64,000 nucleotides of DNA from Podarcis vaucheri (taxonomy: Eukaryota), in NCBI GenBank assembly GCA_965113315.1, contig OZ220382.1, one strand, 5' to 3'. This document shows, in pieces, positions 7,557 through 63,084 of the stretch (position 1 is the first letter of the stretch; each line of letters starts with the position of its first letter). A program made the translations under genes and the position numbers. A model generated the notes under the pieces. The model had not been told where the DNA came from. It was given only the letters and a program-made list of their open reading frames with translations, and did no database searches.

Positions 7557-7737
7557 GCCCCCAGCTCAATTTTGCAGCACTCAAAAAGTCCCAGGCTTGA
7601 TTCCTGGCTGTTTAAAGGACCAATTAATTCCAGCTTTGTCCCTATCCTCCTCCCTGCTGAGTTCAACGGGGGGGTAACACTGAGACTGAGAAGGAGGAAG
7701 CTGGCAGGCAGGAAAGCTTCCTGGACTGTCTGTAAGT

Positions 7738-10718
7738 GTCTGTGGGGGAGGGAGACTGTGGGGGAGGGAGAGAGAGAGTGTCTGTGGGGGAGGGAGACAG
7801 TGCTCCTGAAGGTAGGAGTCTATCAATTAATGAAGATGATCATCCAAATGTCATAGACCAAATGGAGCAAACAGCACGCGGACCTAGTGGTGGGAGGAAA
7901 AAATCCTTAAATAAGAGACACGGGGGAATGATTAATGGACTTCAATTTCTGTACACTAATGCGCAAAGCATGGGAAATAAACAAGATGAGCTCGAGCTCT
8001 TAGTACAGCAAAGTAAATATGACATAATAGGCATCACTGAAACCTGGTGGGATAAGTCCCACGATTGGAATGTAATAATGGGGGGATACAATCTATTTCA
8101 GAGAAACAGACCAGACAAGAAAGGAGGAGGAGTGGCGTTATATGTCAGGGATGTGTATACCTGTGAAGAGATCCAAGATTTAGATCCTCAAAGCCAAAGT
8201 GAGAGCATTTGGGTCAAAATTAAGGGAGAGAAGAATAACAGAGACCTCATTGTGGGAGTTTACTATAGATCCCCAAGCCAAACGGAGGACATAGATGATG
8301 CCTTCCTGGAACAGATGGCCAAGCATGCAAAAGGAAGGGAGATAGTAGTAATGGGGGACTTCAATTACCCAGATATTTGTTGGACGTCAAACTCAGCCAA
8401 GAGCATAAGGTCAAACAGATTCCTCACTGGCCTTGAAGACAACTTCATTGTCCAGAAAGTGGGAGAAGCAACAAGAGGAACAGCCATTTTAGATCTGGTC
8501 CTAACCAATGTTGATGACCTGGTTAGTGGGGTAGAAGTGGAAGGATCATTAGGCGCGAGTGATCATGCTCTTCTGAAGTTTACTATACAGCGGAAAGGAG
8601 CAGCCAAGCATACTAGGACTCAATTTCTTGACTTTAAGAAAGCTGACTTCATAAAACTTAGGGAAGTGCTGGGTGAGATCCCATGGACAACAATACTAAA
8701 AGGAAAGGGAGTTCATGATGGCTGGGAGTTTGTTAAGAGGGAGATAGTAAAAGCACAACGTCAGGCAATACCAATGAGACGGAAACATGGAAGGTGCCTA
8801 AAGAAACCAGGGTGGCTATCTAAAGAACTTTTAACTGAATTAAGATTAAAAAAGGATGTGTACAAAAAATGGAAAAGGGGGGAACCACCAAAGAGGAATT
8901 CAAACAAATAGCCAGCACGTGTAGACACAAAGTCAGAAAAGCTAAAGCACAGAATGAACTCAGGCTTGCTAGAGAGGTTAAAAGCAACAAAAAATGCTTT
9001 TATGGGTATGTTCGTAGCAAAAGGAAGAACAAAGAAACAGTGGGGTCACTCAGAGGATAAGATGGTGAAATGCAAACAGGGGACACAGAAAGGGCTGAAC
9101 TCCTCAATGCCTTCTTTGCCTCAGTCTTCTCCGATAAAGAAAACAATGCCCGACCTGAAGAATTTGGAGCAAATGATTCAGCAAAGGAAACACAGCCCAG
9201 AATAACTAAGGAGATAGTACAAGAATATTTGGCTAGTTTAGATGTATTCAAGTCTCCAGGGCCAGATGAACTGCATCCAAGAGTATTAAAAGAACTGGCA
9301 GATGTGATCTCAGAACCACTGGCAGTCATCTTTGAGAATTCCTGGAGAACAGGCGAAGTCCCGGCAGACTGGAGGAGGGCAAATGTTGTCCCTATTTTCA
9401 AAAAGGGGAAAAGAGAGGACCCAAATAATTACCGCCCAGTCAGTCTGACATCAATACCAGGGAAGATTCTGGAGCAGATCATTAAGCAAACAGTCTGTGA
9501 GCACCTAGAAAGGAATACTGTGATCACCAATAGTCAGCATGGATTTCTGAAAAATAAGTCATGTCAGACTAACCTGATCTCGTTTTTTGACAGAATTACA
9601 AGCCTGGTAGATGAAGGGAACGCAGTGGATGTAGCCTACCTTGATTTCAGCAAGGAATTTGACAAGGTGCCCCATGATATTCTTGTAAAGAAGCTGGTAA
9701 AATGCGGTCTTGACTATGCTACCACTCATTGGATTTGTAACTGGCTGACTGACCGAACCCAAAGGGTGCTCATCAATGGTTCCTCTTCATCCTGGAGAAG
9801 AGTGACTAGTGGGGTGCCACAGGGTTCTGTCTTGGGCCCGGTCTTATTCAACATCTTTATCAACGACTTGGATGATGGACTCAAGGGCATCCTGATCAAA
9901 TTTGCAGATGACACCAAACTGGGAGGGGTGGCTAACACCCCAGAGGACAGGATCACACTTCAAAACGACCTTGACAGATTAGAGAACTGGGCAAAAACAA
10001 ACAAGATGAATTTTAACAGGGAGAAATTTAAAGTATTGCACTTGGGCAAAAAAAATGAGAGGCACAAATACAAGATGGGTGACACCTGGCTTGGGAGCAG
10101 TACATGTGAAAAGGATCTAGGAGTCTTGGTTGACCACAAACTTGACATGAGCCAACAAGTGTGACGCGGCAGCTAAAAAAGCCAGTGCAATTCTGGGCTG
10201 CATCAATAGGAGTATAGCATCTAGATCAAGGGAAGTAATAGTGCCACTGTATTCTGCTCTGGTCAGACCTCACCTCCAGAGGAGGGCAACCAAAATGATC
10301 AAAGGCCTGGAAACGATGCCTTATGAGGAACGGCTAAGGGAGCTGGGCAGGTTTAGCCTGGAGAAGAGGAGGTTAAGGGGTGATATGATAGCCATGTTCA
10401 AATATATAAAAGGATGTCACATAGAGGAGGGAGAAAGGTTGTTTTCTGCTGCTCCAGAGAAGCGGACACGGAGCAATGGATCCAAACTAAAAGAAAGACG
10501 ATTCCACCTAAACCTTAGGAAGAACTTCCTGACAGTAAGAGCTGTTCGACAGTGGAATTTGCTGCCAAGGAGTGTGGTGGAGTCTCCTGCTTTGGAGGTC
10601 TTTAAGCAGAGGCTTGACAACCGTATGTCAGGAGTGCTCTGATGGTGTTTCCTGCTTGGCAGGGGGTTGGACTCGATGGCCCTTGTGGTCTCTTCCAACT
10701 CTATGATTCTATGATTCT
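7738..10718 (+). mobile_element. CR1 LINE, 5'-truncated, spanning nearly all of ORF2
   Basis: APE endonuclease (YTNAQS, GITETWWD, MGDFNYPD, SDH), RT (PGPD, GVPQGSVLGP, KFADD) and the canonical (ATTCTATG)n tail ending at 10718. Confidence 0.95.
7927..10642 (+). pseudogene. Disrupted CR1 ORF2 (endonuclease-reverse transcriptase)
   Basis: Frameshift near 8880, stop at 9058-9060, frameshift near 10160, and a 63-nt in-frame deletion near 10275 relative to the copy at 16039-16558. Confidence 0.9.
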
Positions 10719-17503: not shown

Positions 17504-17561
17504 GTTTTTCTTGGGGGGAAACAATATATATAATATTACCCCCAAGACACTACAAACCCCC

Positions 17562-17969
17562 TGTCAGGGAACTGCCATCGGAGGGACAGGTGGTGGAAGG
17601 GCTCACGGAGGTTGGGAGAGACCCAGCAGCTGAAGCAGGAACCAGCAGGGGGAGAGGTGGGTCTCTGAGGGAAAGCGAGCAAGAGGGAGGGCTCAGGGAA
17701 ACGTCGAGCGAGAACAGTGGGGAGGTTTCTGGACCTCCCATAGGGACACCCACTCCTCGCCGGAAACTGTCACGCCACGAGTCCAGAAGACGTGTTTCCG
17801 TTAAGGAGCTTTTATGTTGGAAGTGATTCCGAAAGCAACCACTGTCGGAATCTGCCAGTGACTAGAGGAGCCGTGTCTGAGGGGCTCCATCACAGACAGA
17901 GGTTTGTGGACTTGAACAAACTCTAAGGGACTACGATTTTACGCACAAGCAGCTCATCATCCCTTCACA
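17562..17969. mobile_element. Solo LTR (408 bp) of an LTR retrotransposon
   Basis: TGTCAGGG...CCTTCACA termini; 5-bp TSD CCCCC (17557-17561, 17970-17974); homologous to 30795-31227. Confidence 0.85.
17563..17865 (+). pseudogene. LTR-embedded ORF with one premature TGA
   Basis: Open from LTR base 2: VRELPSE...GPPIGTPTPRRKLSRHESRRRVSVKELLCWK*FRKQPLSESASD*; the TGA at 17824 aligns with Arg in the other copy. Confidence 0.65.
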
Positions 17970-17974
17970 CCCCC

Positions 17975-30342: not shown

Positions 30343-30794
30343 AACCTGAGGATGGTTCAGTTCACACTGAAGGCTATTTCTGTGGTGAAGGGGGTGGGTT
30401 TGCACCATTCCCCTATATTTAAAAGAACACCTCCCCACACCAGCCTGCTCTTACACCAATATTTTCTTTGGAGGACCTCCTGTATTTGAGGTGAAATAGG
30501 TGACAACCAGTGAGGAAGCCTTATCTGACATTGTACCCTTCCTTGAGAAATCCCCTCCCCATCCCACAGCACTGGTGCCCTCTAGGTGCCAGGCTAATAC
30601 ATTCTTTTTCCCCTCACACCTTTAATGCCAGTGAAATGCTAGGGTTTCCGCTTTTAACTCTGTCTTGTATTTAACCAGTTACCTGGTGAGCATAGATTGC
30701 TTCTAAGCAAATGATGGTCTGCATCAAGAGTTAGTAGCTCAGTGGTGAACACTGGTCTGCCTTTTATATATAGTGGTACCTCTGGATATGAATG

Positions 30795-31227
30795 TGTCAG
30801 GGAACTGGCATCGGAGCTAGAGGTGGAGGGAAGGCTCTCAAATGATGCTGGAGAAGGGCCCAGCAGGGAGAGAGGCAGCTCCGCAGATGGGGAAGCAAAT
30901 CAGCGCAACACCAGGGATATAGAGGGGCTGATGGGGGAATCTGCAAGAGGGCTCCAGGACTCTTCACCGGACACCAGCGGGGAGAGCACGGGTCCTCCGC
31001 TACCCATGCCCACCCTGCGCAGAAGACTTCCGCGCAGAGAGAGTAGGAGGAGACTGGGTGTCAAACAACTTTTATGTTGGAAAAGATTTAAGAAACGCCC
31101 ACTGACGGATTCTGCTAGCGACTAAGGCAGCCATGAATTGAAGGGCTGTCCAGACAGAAAGGTTTAACAAGGCAACATAACCAGGAGAGGTGGCAACTTA
31201 CGCACGAGCAACCCCATACCCACTACA
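30795..31227. mobile_element. Solo LTR (433 bp) of an LTR retrotransposon
   Basis: TGTCAGGG...CACTACA termini; perfect 5-bp TSD GAATG (30790-30794, 31228-31232). Confidence 0.9.
30796..31125 (+). CDS. Intact LTR-embedded ORF (109 codons, no ATG at the LTR edge): acidic/Gly-Ser N-part, Arg-rich C-part, function unknown
   Basis: VRELASELEVEG...GPPLPMPTLRRRLPRRESRRRLGVKQLLCWKRFKKRPLTDSASD*; conserved at protein level with 17563-17865. Confidence 0.6.
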   Translation, partial: VRELASELEVEGRLSNDAGEGPSRERGSSADGEANQRNTRDIEGLMGESARGLQDSSPDTSGESTGPPLPMPTLRRRLPRRESRRRLGVKQLLCWKRFKKRPLTDSASD

Positions 31228-32312
31228 GAATGGGATCCGTTCCGGAGCCCTGTTCGCATCCTGAATAGAACATAAGATGCGTCTGCGCGTGCGTGGGTCA
31301 TGTTTTGCCGCTTCCGCGCATGCGCGTGACGTCATTTTGAGCGTATGCGTATGAACAAGCGGCGAAACCTGGAAGTAATGCACTTCGTTACTTCTGTGTT
31401 GCCATGGAGTACAACCCGATAATATTCATCCGGAAGCTACTTCAGCCCGAGGTATGACTGTATATGAGTGGCTTGCAAAGGAGAGATTGAACAGGCCAAT
31501 ACAGAATTTGCAGCCTAGTATTTATACTATTATTAGTCGTATTTTTGTGGGGTTATTTATAATCATGTTTTAACCATGATTCAGTGTCAATTTGATTGTT
31601 ACTGTTTTATTGATATGCTTTAAATTATCCTGGAAACATTTTTTTAACTTGAAGGAGGCACAAAAACTGCTTAAGACTTCAGCATTTTCCTTCCCCATCC
31701 CAGTTGTGGATATGAACTAAGGTACTGCCTGGCAAAGCACTCTTTGAAAGCATAGGACCAAAAGAAGCTACCTTATACAGAGTCAGACCATCGGATCAAT
31801 CTAGCCATGTACCGCCTACAGTGAATGGCAGCGGCTCTTCATTTCAGATGGGAGCATCTCCCAGGCTCCTACCTGGCGATATCAGAGATTGGGCTTCTGG
31901 TTCCTGTCCGTGACTACGGTAGCCACTCTTCATTGGATAGAATGCGGAAAGCCACTTTTTGAAAAAATTGTATTACATTTATTTTAATTTCTGGTTGATT
32001 TGTTAAAATTTGGAAAATTGATAAAAAGGATTTGGCAAAAGAGAGACACATATTGGAGATTGAACCTGTGACCTTCTGCATGCAAAACAGATGCTCTACC
32101 ACTAAGCTACAGCCTTTCCCCAAGTTTTTCTGCAAAAGAAGCTTCACAATATGCAGGTTATGGTGAAGGATCTCTACCGTGCTACCTACTAAAATAATGT
32201 CTCTTGATCTAATGCTGCAATGGTGCAGTGAATTCAGAGATATTCCAACAATTTTTTGGAGTAGGCCTTCTGTGCACCCAAAAACATATCTTCTCCAGCA
32301 AAGGATGCCAAA

Positions 32313-44375: not shown

Positions 44376-45090
44376 ATTATCTTTCCACTTAGAGCTCAGC
44401 TAATTATGCAGAGCCTGCTAACAATCCAGGAGGAACCGCCCACGGCTAGACAATCAAAGATCCAGTGGCAAAGTAAACAAAGAATGTAAACAAAGAACTG
44501 GAAAGCACTTCTTTCTTCCCTCACAATCACCCCCAAGAATGGAAAAAAGAGGGGGAACAGTATTTATTTTTATTTTCTGGTGGTGTTTATGTTGTTGGTT
44601 CCCCCTAAATAGCCTTCCTCCGTATCAAAAAGGTCTTTTTATTTAAAGGAGACTTTGCTTGCTTGCCCTCCCTTCCTTTGATAAAAAGGGAGAGGATGGT
44701 AAAATGAGGACTGGGGGGGGTCTTCTGGGGGGGGATCGAGAGAAGAGGATTTAGCTGGTTGCCTTATGCTGCAATGGAAGCTTGGGAATGATGGGGAGAA
44801 TGTTTTTCGGTAAGGAGTGCAAGCAAATGTGTGTCTACTCACAAGCAAGCCCTACTGAATTCAATGCGGCTGACTCCCAGAAAAGTTTAGTTTAACTCAG
44901 TGGGGTTTATCCACACACAGATTCCACTTAGACTGCTGAGTGGGGAAGCAGATGCAACTTGAGTAGTAAATCACTTAAAATACTCTTAAATTAGTTAGAA
45001 ATATATTAAATATACTATATGGAAGTTTATTTAATATTTTTATTAAATCTACTACTTCCATATGTTTTAAGGCCCTCTACCACTGCAGGG

Positions 45091-45514
45091 CCAGTAGTGA
45101 TGTATGGAAGTGAGAGCTGGACCATAAAGAAGGCTGATCACCAAAGAATAGATGCTTTTGAATTATGGTGCTGGAGGAGACTCTTGAGAGTCCCATGGAC
45201 TGCAGAAAGATCAAACCTATCCATTCTTAAGGAAATCAGCCCTGAGTGCTCACTGGAAGGACAGATTCTGAAGCTGAGACTCCAATACTTTGGCCACCTC
45301 ATGAGAAGAAACGACTCCGTGGAAAAGACCCTGATGTTGGGAAATATGGAGGGCACAAGGAGAAGGGGACAACAGAGGACAAGATGGTTGGATAGTGTTC
45401 TCGAAGCTACCAGCATGAATTTGACTAAACTGTGGGAGGAAGTGGAAGACAGAAGTGCCTGGCGTGCTCTGGTCCATGGGGTCACGAAGAGGCGGACACG
45501 ACTAAACAACAACA
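45091..45514 (+). mobile_element. BovB (RTE) LINE 3' fragment
   Basis: VVMYGSESWTIKKA..RIDAFELWCWRRLLRVPWTA...LKLRLQYFGHLMRR; (CAA)n tail; 12-bp TSD ACCAC(T/C)GCAGGG. Confidence 0.95.
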
Positions 45515-45654
45515 ACCACCGCAGGGAGGCACGGCAAGGCCCTCTGCTGCTTTGCGGAAGCATGGCATACCCTCTGCCACTACAGGGAGGTACAGCAGGA
45601 ACCTCTGGGGGCATAGAAAATCCTTCTGCTGCTGTGGGGAGGTACAGCAGGAAA

Positions 45655-45800
45655 GTTTCATCCTACTCCATCTCTCCATATTTTGTTTAATCTTGCTCCA
45701 CGCAAGCACATAATTGTTCTGGAACAGATTAGCACTGTTATTTGTTATCCAAACACCTAAATATTTCACCTTCTTCTCCACATTAGTACCCGACAAGATG
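45655..45800 (-). mobile_element. L1/Tx1 ORF2 fragment
   Basis: KKVKYLGVWIT..NLFQNNY..WSKIKQNMERWSRMKLS. Confidence 0.7.
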
Positions 45801-50272: not shown

Positions 50273-50524
50273 CAATGGTACCTCTGGGCGCAAATGGGAT
50301 CCATTCTGGAGCCCAGTTCTCATCCTGAAGCGAACGCAACCCGCGCCTGCGTGTGTGCAGGTCACAATTCGCTGCGTCTGTGCATCCGTGTGACGTCATT
50401 TTGAGCATCTGCGCATGCGCGAGCGACGAAACCCAAAAGTAACATGTTCCGTTACTTCTGGGTCACCGTAGAGCACAACCCGAAAACGCTCAACCCGAAG
50501 CTACTTTAACCCAAGATATGACAG
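50273..50524. mobile_element. Tc1/mariner-type MITE, family D, sharing a TA with the previous MITE
   Basis: CAATGGTACCTC...GATATGACAG|TA; homologous to 30771-31460. Confidence 0.8.
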
Positions 50525-52571
50525 TATATAAATGTGTTAAATAAAGAAGCTTCCCTAGGCTCAGTTCATGCAACAGCACTGTCTTGCATCTAGAATAATC
50601 CCTTCCCTTCTTACGCCCCTGGTCACTCATACACATATTCACACACACACCCTCACAAACACCACTTGTAGTAGCCCTTTTTTTAGGAATCATTCTTTAA
50701 TAGAATAGTCAAAGTTCTTTCAGTACAGCATGGAAGCTTCTGAGGTTACACGACATCACATTTTACAGGAATTGGTAGAGAGGGGTATAAAAGATCAACT
50801 GAGTCACCTAAGATTTAGCATCAAAGAACAGATTTGTAACAAGGTAGAGTGACTGGCAGGGAGGAGACACCCATTTACTTGAAAACTTCTATAGGGACCT
50901 GTTGCAGACTTCATACTTTTGGAATTCATTTATTATATTTATATCCAAACTTTCCTTCAAGCTCAAGGTGGTATACATACTTTGCCCCATTTTATCCTCA
51001 AGGCAACCCTGTGAGTCAGGTTAGGCTGAGAGTGAACAAAACCCAATGAGCTTCATGGCTGAGTAGGGATTTGAACCCTGGTCACCCAGGTGCTAGGCCA
51101 GCACTCTAACCATGCTGGCTCTGCCTATCCATCACAGGTAGAAAACATGCTCTAACAGAAGTCAACCTGTATTGCAGTTCAGCAGATGACCAAGCCTGCT
51201 TACATTCAGACATAACTACTTTTGAACTCAAAAAGATCAATGGCAATTTAAGCTATAGTCTAAAAGAAGGATGAGGACAAACAAAAAGAGAATGTTCCAA
51301 TGACAGAATATTGCTAACAGTTAAGGAGTTCGTGAGAGATGAATACAGCACCAAACCAGCTAATGCCACTGAAGGCTGGAATACTTCCTTGTTGTTAAGG
51401 TAGGAAACCTAACTTTTTTCTTTTTGGTTGGGGGAATTCTGCAATGGGGCTGTGGAAGGAAAAAATTGGAGGTGTGTGACCATTAAGAAATTTCAAAAGT
51501 GGCAGAGCAAAACTGGGAGCTGAGTAGAGTGAATTTGCCCTTCTGTCCCTCTAACCATGGCAACTATTTCCATAGGCTTATCTTCTCATGAACCAGCTTT
51601 ACACTTAAAAACACAACCAAGAATTCTCCATCCTCTCAAAAATGCCACTGTAGATCAGATTTTATTTACTGTTACGCTTGCATGAAACTAAAGGTCTATC
51701 ATGCAACTCTGCTTCAAATGATAAGCTTTGGTAAGATCAAAATAATGGACCAATGAATCAAATGACAGATTGGCAACTCTAGAAAGTGACTCATGTTAAG
51801 ACCCGGAAAACTAGTGCAGCCCAAAAGATAGATATTGCAGGAGAATGGGAGGGCATGAAAGTGGTGGGCAAGGCCACTGATAAAACTGGGGCAGTGGAAC
51901 AGGTGTGATGGGATAGTATAGCCTACATTTTATCTACATGGAAGTCAGAAGTTTCTACATACACATACCAATGCCTTCTTCCAGAAACACTCGATAAACA
52001 ATGAATCGGGTGGTGAGGGGTGTAGCCTGGGGTGAGTGTAGCCTAGAGAGAATCCCAAGGATCTAACAGAAGCCTGGAGAGTTATATTCAGACCCTGGGT
52101 CTGAGGTTTCCCGCCCTGATGTACTGAAACTAGAATGTGAGGGCCTGAGTTTCTACTCAGCCATGAAGTCACTGTGTGGCTTTGGGCATGCCACTCGCTG
52201 CTCGCTCCTCTAAAAAATAACAACTGTGCTCACCAAATGAGAGTGACACTGAGACATACTAGAAAGCAGTTTGTACATAAGAAGTACTAACTTATTATTA
52301 TGACAAAGCCATCACTAGGGCACACTGCATGAACAAGGCAAGGCATTTCAATTTGGAAACACATTTAACTGATGGGGATACACAAAGGTTTTTTGCACCT
52401 GCAGATTATTATTTTTTGAGGGTTATGTTTTGAGGGTTATTTTTGTAAGTTGCTTTTAAGCATGGTTACCCACCTAGCCTGGGCTTTTAATGACAGAGGT
52501 GTATGAAAAGTGGGGCGGCGGGGGAAAATATGCATGGTGTAGATAAAAGAATTTTCTCCCTCTCTCATAAA

Positions 52572-59321: not shown

Positions 59322-60770
59322 CAACTGTGTTGAGGTTTTTTAATGTACATAATAAAATTACATGTCTGGGTAGGTGTGTTTAAATGAGAATGGGCTTAGA
59401 AGGCATAAAAACAGTATAATGAAGGCACTTGCTTAACATGAATAGGGAGGGAGTTTCAGAGAAGTGGTGATGCCTATACTGCCAAACTTTAAATGTATCT
59501 AGCATACATATACAGCTCTTTTCTGTTGGCTCAACAGTTACCAAATAGAACAGGATGCCTAAAATACAGTTTTAAATATTCAGTAAGGTGTTTAAAGAAA
59601 CATTCAGGCAACTTTGCTATTCCTGCCTCAAAGGAATGGAATATTGTAAATTTTACATCAAAATTGCCTACAAGTAAACATGCTAAGGAACATCAGAGGT
59701 GTTCTACACTTTGCCAAAGATCTTAGGAAGATGAAAAAGCCAGGTTGCAAGTGGAGAACGAGTGTCTCCCTCCCAACCTCAAGTGTTCTTGTGAGTGCAG
59801 CACTCCTCCCCAAAGCGAAACAAAGAAATATACAAACTACATTAATTCCCAGCATTTTTCACAAACTGTAGCGGCAGGGACAGGCACGATATTAGAAACA
59901 CCAGTCTCCCCAAAGCACTGTGGAGAGTATTGCAGGATAATGGGAAGCTAGCATTTTCCTATGTTAATTCTTTCTGAAAGATCCCCCAATGCCCCTAAGC
60001 AGAGACAGAATCTTAGGAAGCAAACCACTGGTTCAGCTAGCTCAATACCGTCTACACAGAATGGGAGAAACTCTCCAGACCTGCAGGCTGTGTTCTCTCC
60101 TCTAGCCTCACCTGGAGATGTCAGGGACTGAACCTCACACCATTTGTATGCAAAGCAGATGCTCTACAACTGATCTATGGTTCTTCTCTCTGGGCTTAGG
60201 GGAGAAGAGGAAAGGGACACAGATTATACGCTGCATTTTTAATTTTTCTTGTAAGCCATCCAGGAAAACTGTATTGACCAGAACCAGTATTTATTTATTT
60301 GTTTCCTTATTAGACTTTCATAGGGCCAAATATTTTCCATTGAGCTAGTGTAGATGAAGTAATTGTGACTGAGGGGTAAAACTATAGGCTGGTGGCGTGG
60401 TGTGGTGGAGCCAGAGGAGCCATGGTCCCAGTTGTAGATTTTTGAGGGGGCATGAAGCAAGCACCCCCAATGTGGCACGGCCTGGAGCTCGTCCTCCTGC
60501 ACTGGAGAAACCAACGCTTGCAGAGATGAGCTGGGCTAAGGACACCTCCTTTGCACCACATAGTGCCACAAGCTGGCTGGTTCCCCCCTGTGCAGGCAGG
60601 CGGGTGGAGCAGGCCGCCCTGGATCTGAGCCTCGCAAGGCCGCTCAGAGAGGGCAGAGTGGGGCTGCAGCAACCATGCGCCCTTCAACCCCAGCCCCACG
60701 AGGCTGGGGTCGAGGGATACATGTCTGCTGCGTACCCCGGGTTGCATAGAGACACACTCCGCACTGCTAT

Positions 60771-61190
60771 GTTGTTGTTGTTTAGTCGTGTCCGATTCTT
60801 CGTGACCCCATGGACCAGAGCACGCCAGGCACTTCTGTCTTCCACTGCCTCCCGCAGTTTGGTCAAACTCATGCTGGTAGCTTCGAGAACACTGTCCCAC
60901 CATCTTGTCCTCTGTCGTCCCCTTCTCCTTGTGCCCTCCATCTTTCCCAACATCAGGGTCTTTTCCAGGGAGTCTTCTCTTCTCATGAGGTGGCCAAAGT
61001 ATTGGAGTCTCAGCTTCACGATCTGTCCTTTCAGTGAGCACTCAGGGCTGATTTCCTTAAGAATGGATACATTTGATCTTCTTGCAGTCCATGGGACTCT
61101 CAAGAGTCTCCTCCAGGACCATAATTCAAAAGCATCAATTCTTCGGCAATCAGCCTTCTTTATGGTCCAGCTCTCACTTCCATACATCAC
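60771..61190 (-). mobile_element. BovB (RTE) LINE 3' fragment
   Basis: VMYGSESWTIKKA...LRLQYFGHLMRREDSLEKTLMLGK; (CAA)n tail; perfect 24-bp TSD TAGAGACACACTCCGCACTGCTAT (60747-60770, 61191-61214). Confidence 0.95.
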
Positions 61191-63084
61191 TAGAGACACA
61201 CTCCGCACTGCTATAGGTAACTCTAACACTCTTCAGTCTTTTTAGATACAGATAAACATTTAAACCTAACATACACTTGGGGACAGACAGAATACACACC
61301 ATACATTCAAAGCACATGACTTTCACCAGCCTGGGAACTTCAGTTATCCTTCACAGAGCTACTATTTCCAGCACTGTTAACGAACTACAGTTCCCTGGAC
61401 TCTGGGGAAAATTGTGAGCTTTAAGCAAATGATATGTATGTAGCCTTGTTTCTTAAATTCACCACCATATATATGTATGGAGGTAGTGCTGTTGCTGTGA
61501 CCCATATTAGATCAGGCTATGGCATAGTAGTAGGTTGTGACTCAGTATTGAAGACCAAAAAGTTAGACAACAATTCAGAAATGAAAGTTCATACCAACGA
61601 GCCTGGTACCAGGAGAAAGCAGGGCTGGAGATAAGGGAAAGACAAAGGAAGGAACTTAAAGAGCCAGGTAGCAAAGCAGGATCAAGGAAGCAGGAAGCAG
61701 TGTCTCTGAGCTGGTCTGGTTCACACACCATGCTAAGGCACACCATGGCTTTGCAGGAATGCATAGGTTCTGCAAGAGGCCAATTTGCTCCTCCTAGGTC
61801 ATTCTGCTGCTACACATGGCTTGGTTTAACATGCCACCCAAACCCAGGCTCAAGATTCAGACTAACCACAAGGTGTAACCAAGGTTTGTCCAATTGTTTG
61901 AAACTCTTTTAAGAGTCTGTGACCCCCCAAATTCAGTGTCAGGTGTTTGAGGCTTTTCAAAGTGCTATGAAGCTTTGACAGTCCCTACACCTCCTTTGTA
62001 CTGTATCTTATGCCAGGAGGTGGGGGTACCATGGCAACTTTTTCAGCACAGCACTTAGTTGCCATACTTTAATTAAGTGTGACCTCTAACATTTATTTTA
62101 AAAGGCAAGCAGAGAAGGCACAAAAGGTCTTAGAAAAATCTGTTTCTGTTGTCTCCAACTGATTGATCCAGATCATAGGATCCTTGTTGGTCCCAGAGAT
62201 TAAGAAATGCAAGACAGACAAAAGCACTTTTATTTCTCTCTTCCTTTTGTTGATGTAAGCTTTTGAAATACAAACAGAGAATGCCTTTATTTGGCTCAAG
62301 TGTTTAAAGCACTGAAAACTGAGCTTTCAAGTCACACACACCTACTGAATTGAAAATTCAAGGGAGGGGGTGAGGGAAATATTGCTTGGCCAGGTTCATA
62401 CATTCTAAGGAATGCCTGCAGACTTCCAACAGCAAGGTGCTAAATTCATGTTGGAGGAGACATGTAGGCTTAACATACTGATAAGGTTTTAAACTGCACA
62501 TAGATTTCTGAGCTTCTAGTACAGAAGCTTTCAAAAGACAGAATGGTGGAGTAGCTAAATCTCAAGTGTATTGAGCACACTGGCTTGCAAGCAAAGAAAG
62601 CTTTGCATTTTGGAAAATGGCCTATTCACAAAGCATTTCCCATTCAGCAGCTCTCCAGAAGTATATGCTGTTTCAATATTATCATTCTTGACAATGTTGA
62701 AATTTAATATTGCTGTTAATGTAATGCTCCCTATTATATTGTGTTTACATTGTAAAAGGCTAATCACCACATTAGCAACAGCACACTACCACCACCCATT
62801 TTCATTTCATGGAAAACGCTTGTGAATCAGACTGCAATTTGAAATGTGTGTTTTAGGCACTTAGAACCAACCTTGTTGAGAGGCATGGGCACTTGTGCTT
62901 GTTTCAGTCTCTGAAACCCCAAAGTTTGCAGGTTCCTACACCAACAGAATAAAAAGATATGGTGTTATATACAACTAAGTTCTTTTCAGAGTAGACCCAC
63001 TGAAGTTAATGTATCTTAGTCAAATCCAGTATCTTCCATGATTCTACCCCGAGTAGGAGAGCATCGAATACAACCCATAATTTA

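What the first reader, a model, noticed from the sequence alone, without database searches (positions are those of the whole stretch)
30795..31227. Solo LTRs encode a conserved, selected Arg-rich protein inside the LTR
Seen: this LTR and the one at 17562-17969 are independent insertions (different 5-bp TSDs) and divergent. Both open the same frame at LTR base 2 (VREL.SE), differ in length by an in-frame 27 nt (330 vs 303 nt to the stop), and end in SASD*. By hand alignment of the last 49 codons, 32 residues are identical and 17 of those use different synonymous codons (e.g. TCC/AGT, CGT/AGA, CGG/AGA); the stops are TAG and TAA. That is a purifying-selection signature on protein in a region usually non-coding. 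The product is acidic/Gly-Ser-rich, then Pro-rich, then RRRLPRRESRRR...LLCWKRFKKRP (NLS- or RNA-binding-like). There is no ATG at the LTR edge, so the ORF should start in the internal region of the full element. Established precedents for LTR-overlapping ORFs are retroviral: HIV nef and MMTV sag. Inference: an accessory gene of a squamate LTR retrotransposon or ERV family that may be undescribed.
Basis: partly seen in the sequence, partly recalled or inferred. Interest (0 to 1): 0.85.

Follow-up and report, generated by a model that had tools for sequence, protein, structure and literature searches.

The report
Lizard retrotransposon integrase tail inside LTR
The reading frame in these lizard solo LTRs is not a separate gene but the selected tail end of a retrotransposon's integrase, and just upstream of it that tail carries motifs that likely mimic host proteins binding LEDGF, the chromatin tether that HIV also uses.

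Summary
The frame and its selection are real, but it is not an accessory gene, and solo LTRs should not make the protein. Both LTRs belong to Ty3/Gypsy chromoviruses (gag, PR-RT-RH-IN-chromodomain). In natural 3' ends the Pol frame runs on from the chromodomain through an acidic tail, the PPT and the LTR (in phase in 19 of 30 family-A and 6 of 6 anchored family-B junctions). The elements have a Tf1/sushi-type self-primer, which puts the likely RNA start just before the stop: in four families with 368-756 bp LTRs the whole U3 is coding. The last ~50 codons have dN/dS 0.20 between subfamilies; inserted copies drift near neutrally. Plant CRM chromoviruses are a precedent for Pol entering the LTR. 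New lead: between chromodomain and LTR lie one or two F-acidic-FxGF motifs patterned like the LEDGF/HRP2-binding motifs of JPO2, PogZ and MLL1, in a clade whose chromodomain has lost its aromatic cage. Binding is untested.

The parts
30795..31227 (+). Solo LTR of family A (433 bp, TG..CA), TSD GAATG at 30790-30794 and 31228-31232
30796..31125 (+). LTR copy of the last 109 codons of Pol plus TAA; translated only from the 3' LTR of a full element (inferred)
30796..30960 (+). Weakly constrained acidic/Gly-Ser spacer part of the tail (dN/dS about 0.7), predicted disordered
31018..31098 (+). Selected Arg/Lys-rich block with the short predicted helix ending in LLCW (31069-31080); CW invariant in 13 of 13 aligned copies, codons vary synonymously
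31101..31111 (+). 11-nt self-primer, complementary to the family's PBS; predicted RNA start and U3/R border
31126..31227 (+). Non-coding rest of R and U5
   Evidence: 101-105 nt among subfamilies, many single-base gaps
17562..17969 (+). Solo LTR of family B (408 bp), TSD CCCCC at 17557-17561 and 17970-17974
17563..17865 (+). LTR copy of the last 100 codons of family-B Pol plus TAG, broken in this copy by a stop at 17824-17826
17841..17851 (+). Family-B 11-nt self-primer; differs from family A at two positions, matched by changes in the PBS

Best explanation
The frame is the C-terminal end of the Pol polyprotein of lizard Ty3/Gypsy chromoviruses, running from integrase and chromodomain through the PPT and the LTR, and this tail likely serves to bring the integration complex into the nucleus and tether it to host chromatin. 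Shown (about 95%): Pol is in frame with the LTR frame; the stop sits 6-25 nt past the self-primer start in four families; the last ~50 codons are under purifying selection between subfamilies but not after insertion. Inferred: RNA starts at the self-primer, so only the 3' LTR copy is translated; reverse transcription copies U3 into both LTRs, and LTR-LTR recombination leaves solo LTRs such as these two as untranslated relics. Inferred (about 50%): the LTR-coded Arg-rich block with its LLCW helix is a nuclear-import and DNA/nucleosome-binding element. Inferred (about 55%): the one or two F-acidic(Ser/Thr)-FxGF motifs just upstream of the LTR are TND-interacting motifs that bind LEDGF/p75 or HRP2, replacing methyl-lysine reading by a chromodomain whose aromatic cage is lost, which would steer integration towards transcribed chromatin.
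For: Continuous natural frame RH-IN-chromodomain-tail-LTR; phase 19 of 30 (A), 6 of 6 anchored (B), 12 of 15 in sister family E reach the same kind of end; database proteins show the same fusion. Self-primer in 8 of 8 5' LTRs, 4 exact, plus 2 of 2 in family E, 1 exact. dN/dS: last ~50 LTR codons 0.20, motif 1 0.15, motif 2 0.12, chromodomain 0.14. Private variants 9 syn:35 nonsyn (A, 24 copies) and 10:15 (B, 30 copies). Strict motif pattern in 13 of 13 tails, twice in 8; in 4 of 4 known LEDGF-binding motifs; shuffles 0.4-1.9% for one, 0 of 2000 for two; 1 of 105 other integrase hits. Third cage aromatic in 0 of 20 clade members vs 65 of 68 others. Host has LEDGF-domain genes.
Against: 11 of 30 family-A junctions are out of phase and only 12 of 30 are open from chromodomain to the end. 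The motif pattern was written after seeing the motif, the tails are acid-rich, and motif 1 reads L/S in place of the first F of FxGF in family B and one other copy. AlphaFold2 predicts no helix before either FxGF in the free chain, although the helix is an obligate TIM feature. Cage loss and motif gain map to one clade, so they are one event, not a correlation. The RNA start, translation of the tail and its retention on mature integrase were not observed. No Pfam, PDB or Atlas match gives a function to the LTR-coded part.
Confidence: 0.8

Rival explanations
1. A separate accessory gene (nef/sag-like) expressed from a spliced or internally started RNA, or from solo LTRs.
For: The LTR part alone is an open, selected frame in most close copies: 27 of 30 (A) and 26 of 30 (B) reach the family stop (these were the hits most like the query).
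Against: No stop separates it from integrase; the predicted RNA start lies near its end; private variants are near neutral.
Confidence: 0.04
2. Pol reads through to the LTR stop, but the tail is a passive or merely charged spacer; the conservation reflects promoter, att and self-primer DNA constraints, and the FxGF motifs do not bind TND proteins.
For: The first LTR codons overlap the att site and PPT; the last eight overlap the self-primer; a TTTTAT lies about 31 nt before the predicted start in some subfamilies; the first half of the LTR frame has dN/dS about 0.7.
Against: Third positions diverge two to three times more than first and second over the last ~50 codons; LLCW is kept with changing codons, and CW in families only 28-33% identical; both FxGF motifs have low dN/dS.
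Confidence: 0.12
3. The tail is functional but its partner is another TND protein (IWS1, TFIIS, ELOA, MED26, PNUTS) or a non-TND factor; or the tail is cut off by the protease and acts on its own, for instance in RNA packaging.
For: TIMs bind several TNDs (PMC9987994); the Arg-rich block could bind RNA; no cleavage map exists.
Against: The review states that FxGF is the feature required by LEDGF and HRP2 in particular, and FxGF is the best conserved part here.
Confidence: 0.25

Closest known systems
Tf1/sushi group chromoviruses (V-clade: Sushi-ichi, Amn)
   Same: gag with zinc knuckle, PR-RT-RH-IN-chromodomain order, Tf2-type SH3 domain, no tRNA PBS but a PBS complementary to the LTR, 5-bp TSD (PMC6317226, PMC4600332 passages).
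   Different: Most relatives end 20-60 residues after the chromodomain and keep the aromatic cage; this clade adds 170-420 residues, codes through all of U3 and has lost the cage.
Plant CRM group A centromeric retrotransposons (CR motif); beet Bingo elements
   Same: [quoted passage not shown]
   Different: CRM has the CR motif in place of a chromodomain and uses tRNA-Met; here a degenerate chromodomain is kept upstream of the PPT, priming is by self-primer, and no sequence likeness was found. Convergent layout, not membership.
TND-interacting motifs (IBM/TIM) of JPO2, PogZ, MLL1, IWS1
   Same: F, then an 8-11 residue acidic Ser/Thr linker, then FxGF; tandem copies as in JPO2.
   Different: Here on a retrotransposon integrase; helix not predicted in the free chain; binding untested. 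Lentiviral integrase binds the same LEDGF domain through its folded core, not through such a motif (PMC5053271 passage).
HIV nef, MMTV sag
   Same: Protein-coding sequence inside U3.
   Different: Those are separate genes on spliced RNAs of enveloped retroviruses; this is part of Pol in an env-less element.

Membership tests
Ty3/Gypsy chromovirus, Tf1/sushi group | gag, then PR-RT-RH-IN order, no env | tested here: met
Ty3/Gypsy chromovirus, Tf1/sushi group | Chromodomain at the integrase C-terminus | tested here: met
   PF00385, E 6e-11 and 2e-7; folded in the model; cage residues 1 and 3 lost
Ty3/Gypsy chromovirus, Tf1/sushi group | PBS complementary to the element's own LTR (self-priming) | tested here: met
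   8 of 8 and 2 of 2 5' LTRs, covarying between four families; priming itself not assayed
Ty3/Gypsy chromovirus, Tf1/sushi group | RT phylogeny with named Tf1/Sushi-ichi references | not tested
   Only an integrase-core tree with database hits; no named reference elements in it
Endogenous retrovirus with accessory gene | env gene and tRNA PBS; ORF separate from pol | tested here: not met
CRM group A | CR motif replacing the chromodomain; tRNA-Met PBS; plant host | tested here: not met
TND-interacting motif (LEDGF/HRP2 type) | FxGF | tested here: met
   at least one strict match in 13 of 13 tails
TND-interacting motif (LEDGF/HRP2 type) | Acidic linker of 8-16 residues with Ser/Thr | tested here: met
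   8-11 residues; definition
TND-interacting motif (LEDGF/HRP2 type) | Short alpha-helix with anchoring hydrophobic residues before the linker | tested here: inconclusive
   Anchor F invariant (motif 1) or nearly so (motif 2); no helix in the free-chain model, pLDDT under 50
TND-interacting motif (LEDGF/HRP2 type) | Binding to a TND | not testable with these tools
   Needs an experiment; the complex predictor was not available

The most novel reading that the evidence does not exclude
A lizard LTR-retrotransposon clade swapped heterochromatin reading for host mimicry: its chromodomain lost the methyl-lysine cage and its integrase gained host-type TND-interacting motifs that dock on LEDGF/HRP2, plus a basic anchor encoded by a fully protein-coding U3. 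It would have reached the same chromatin tether as HIV integrase independently and by a different binding mode.
Probability: 0.45. Interest if true: 0.85.

Novelty: new variant of a known kind. Interest (0 to 1): 0.62.

Why it matters
If the motifs bind, this would be a retrotransposon using a host short linear motif to engage LEDGF/HRP2, for which my searches of the held library found no report. It gives a natural second solution to LEDGF tethering and a directly testable case of a chromovirus changing its targeting rule. The fully coding U3 also explains why thousands of lizard solo LTRs look like conserved genes, a trap for gene annotation and dN/dS scans.

Tried and rejected
Complex prediction of motif 1 with the LEDGF domain: tool not available, no result. 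Expression: no RNA holder listed on record; contigs of four runs guessed to be RNA cover tail and LTR in pieces but cannot show start, strand or level. No Pfam family for the LTR peptide or tail, no PDB sequence match below E 1.2, no usable Atlas hit. Profile search of 1.84 billion representatives gave 6 hits; the 3 named are labelled Podarcis muralis, so breadth beyond lacertids is not shown. An antisense ORF over the same stretch was rejected as the mirror frame: the chromodomain shows the same mirror signal. A promoter-only reading of LLCW was rejected because its codons vary. A recalled report of an LEDGF-binding motif in pogo transposases was not found in PMC7386202 (0 term hits). The Gao 2008 chromodomain paper was not held. 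Three look-ups of earlier scan findings returned nothing. Left out of dN/dS: one copy with a replaced 3' end, one with an internal compensating shift, three too distant to align.

Full report
Observation. Both window LTRs are solo LTRs with TG..CA ends and 5-bp target duplications. The genome search gave 3740 and 1373 first-look candidates for the two LTRs, 40 scored each, so both are high-copy families.

What the element is. LTR pairs 5.1-5.2 kb apart enclose gag (Retrotrans_gag, zinc knuckle), protease, RT, RNase H, integrase, a Tf2-type SH3 domain and a chromodomain, with no env. The two copies read in full are broken elsewhere in pol. LTR pairs differ at 5 of 433, 7 of 408 and 7 of 408 sites, so these insertions are young. 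The closest named proteins are labelled Podarcis muralis, which points to a lacertid host.

The frame is the end of Pol. In a family-B copy one natural frame of 831 codons runs from RNase H through integrase, chromodomain, an acidic tail and the PPT into the LTR and stops where the solo-LTR frame stops. Across 3' junctions the chromodomain is in phase with LTR base 2 in 19 of 30 family-A copies (17 share a 408-nt spacing; 12 are open to the end) and in 6 of 6 family-B copies with an anchor (7 examined); the remaining 11 family-A copies are shifted. Database proteins show the same fusion. More distant families keep the junction peptide and a basic end with CW or WC. In sister family E, 209 codons lie inside a 756-bp LTR, and 12 of 15 copies examined are open from the motif to that end.

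Self-priming defines U3. The PBS is not a tRNA match by eye; it is complementary to 11 nt inside the LTR in 8 of 8 5' LTRs (4 exact, 4 with one mismatch), and the two sequences change together between families; family E agrees (2 of 2, 1 exact). This is the Tf1/sushi mechanism, in which the 5' end of the RNA is the primer (PMC4600332 and PMC6317226, passages; the 11-nt length for Tf1 is recalled). The predicted start is LTR nt 307 (A), 280 (B), 221 (D) and 610 (E), and the Pol stop ends 25, 25, 6 and 22 nt further on. So U3 is coding from end to end whatever its length, and only the 3' LTR copy lies on the mRNA. The start itself was not observed.

Selection. I compared natural copies pairwise, one per subfamily (10 used, chosen from 29 uninterrupted frames in 14 clusters). 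Among the 8 family-A-group copies (28 non-independent pairs) dN/dS is 0.07 for SH3, 0.14 chromodomain, 0.15 and 0.12 for the two acidic motifs, 0.61 near the PPT, 0.73 for the first half of the LTR frame and 0.20 (0.12-0.32) for the last ~50 codons. Other frames give 1.26-1.36, the mirror frame 0.29. Variants private to single inserted copies are near neutral: 9 synonymous to 35 non-synonymous in 24 of the 30 family-A copies (ratio 1.27) and 10 to 15 in 30 family-B copies (0.52). Selection therefore acts on replicating elements, not on solo LTRs. AlphaFold2 folds the chromodomain, leaves the tail disordered and gives one low-confidence helix over the KQLLCW stretch.

The upstream motifs. Between chromodomain and PPT lie two stretches of the form F, 8-11 acidic or Ser/Thr residues, FxGF. 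PMC9987994 (passages and section 6) defines TND-interacting motifs as helix plus 8-16 residue acidic linker plus FxGF, the last being essential for LEDGF and HRP2. A strict pattern matches 4 of 4 known motifs taken from database fusion constructs (JPO2 twice, PogZ, MLL1) and 13 of 13 tails, twice in 8; shuffled tails give one match in 0.4-1.9% and two in 0 of 2000; 1 of 105 other integrase hits matches. The pattern was written after I saw the motif. Family E has a single Ser/Thr-rich variant. All 18 FxGF-tail rows fall on one side of a branch in a 46-row integrase tree (support 100/98). In that clade the third cage aromatic of the chromodomain is absent in 20 of 20, against present in 65 of 68 other hits, and the first is missing too in the rows printed (cage positions from PMC3059260 and PMC3605345 passages and recall). 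The host genome has two LEDGF-domain loci, one exon 97% identical to lacertid PSIP1. Against: no helix is predicted before FxGF in the free chain, family B alters motif 1, and this is a single evolutionary event.

Mechanism. Shown: layout, phase, self-complementary PBS, selection pattern. Inferred: translation through the PPT and U3; import and nucleic-acid anchoring by the basic LLCW end (about 50%); LEDGF/HRP2 tethering by the FxGF motifs (about 55%).

Relation to what is known. Pol entering the 3' LTR is described for plant CRM group A and beet Bingo elements (PMC3059260, PMC3605345; passages), so the layout is not new in kind. I found no report of it for reptile elements (searches; listings only) and none of TND-type motifs on a retrotransposon integrase (listings, plus 0 hits for 'transposon' in PMC9987994). 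The library lacks most subscription papers; Butler 2001 was seen only as a reference entry; Repbase and Dfam could not be searched and may already annotate these families; no supplements were read. PMC3601003 and PMC5053271 were read as passages only.

Verdict. The finding as titled is explained by a known kind of element with an unusual, real extension. The interest rests on the untested tethering motifs.

Noticed in passing
P0141, P0143, P0145, P0147 (labelled Anolis carolinensis): A separate clade also runs about 100 residues past a PPT-like stretch, with unrelated sequence, an acidic ..EENLGF stretch and a basic end, while keeping the chromodomain cage: possibly an independent extension into the LTR. 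No DNA was held, so the LTR border is unverified.
   Followed up: partly
L181-L197 (sister family E): A very young sister family: 3652 first-look candidates, near-identical top hits, LTR pairs 99.3-99.9% identical, longer tail with one Ser/Thr-rich FxGF motif and a chromodomain region that Pfam no longer scores.
   Followed up: partly
G000 contig C41 (41 Mb): Holds a large share of the internal-region hits, as a retrotransposon-rich chromosome such as a W would; not tested.
   Followed up: no
L031, near the end of gag: gag and pol are in different frames and a GGGAAAC heptamer lies near the gag end in family A; the same heptamer is recalled as the PEG10 frameshift site.
   Followed up: no
L094: A chromovirus in the same genome with an intact-looking cage and no tail: a natural control for insertion-site comparisons.
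   Followed up: no
window 7736-10161 and 45010-45687, 60687-61232: Long frames that read like LINE reverse-transcriptase/endonuclease fragments (CR1-like and BovB-like, by recall).
   Followed up: no
window 31229-31470: The family-A LTR sits directly beside another repeat that recurs at 50293-50534 at 75% identity, so it may have inserted into an older transposon.
   Followed up: no
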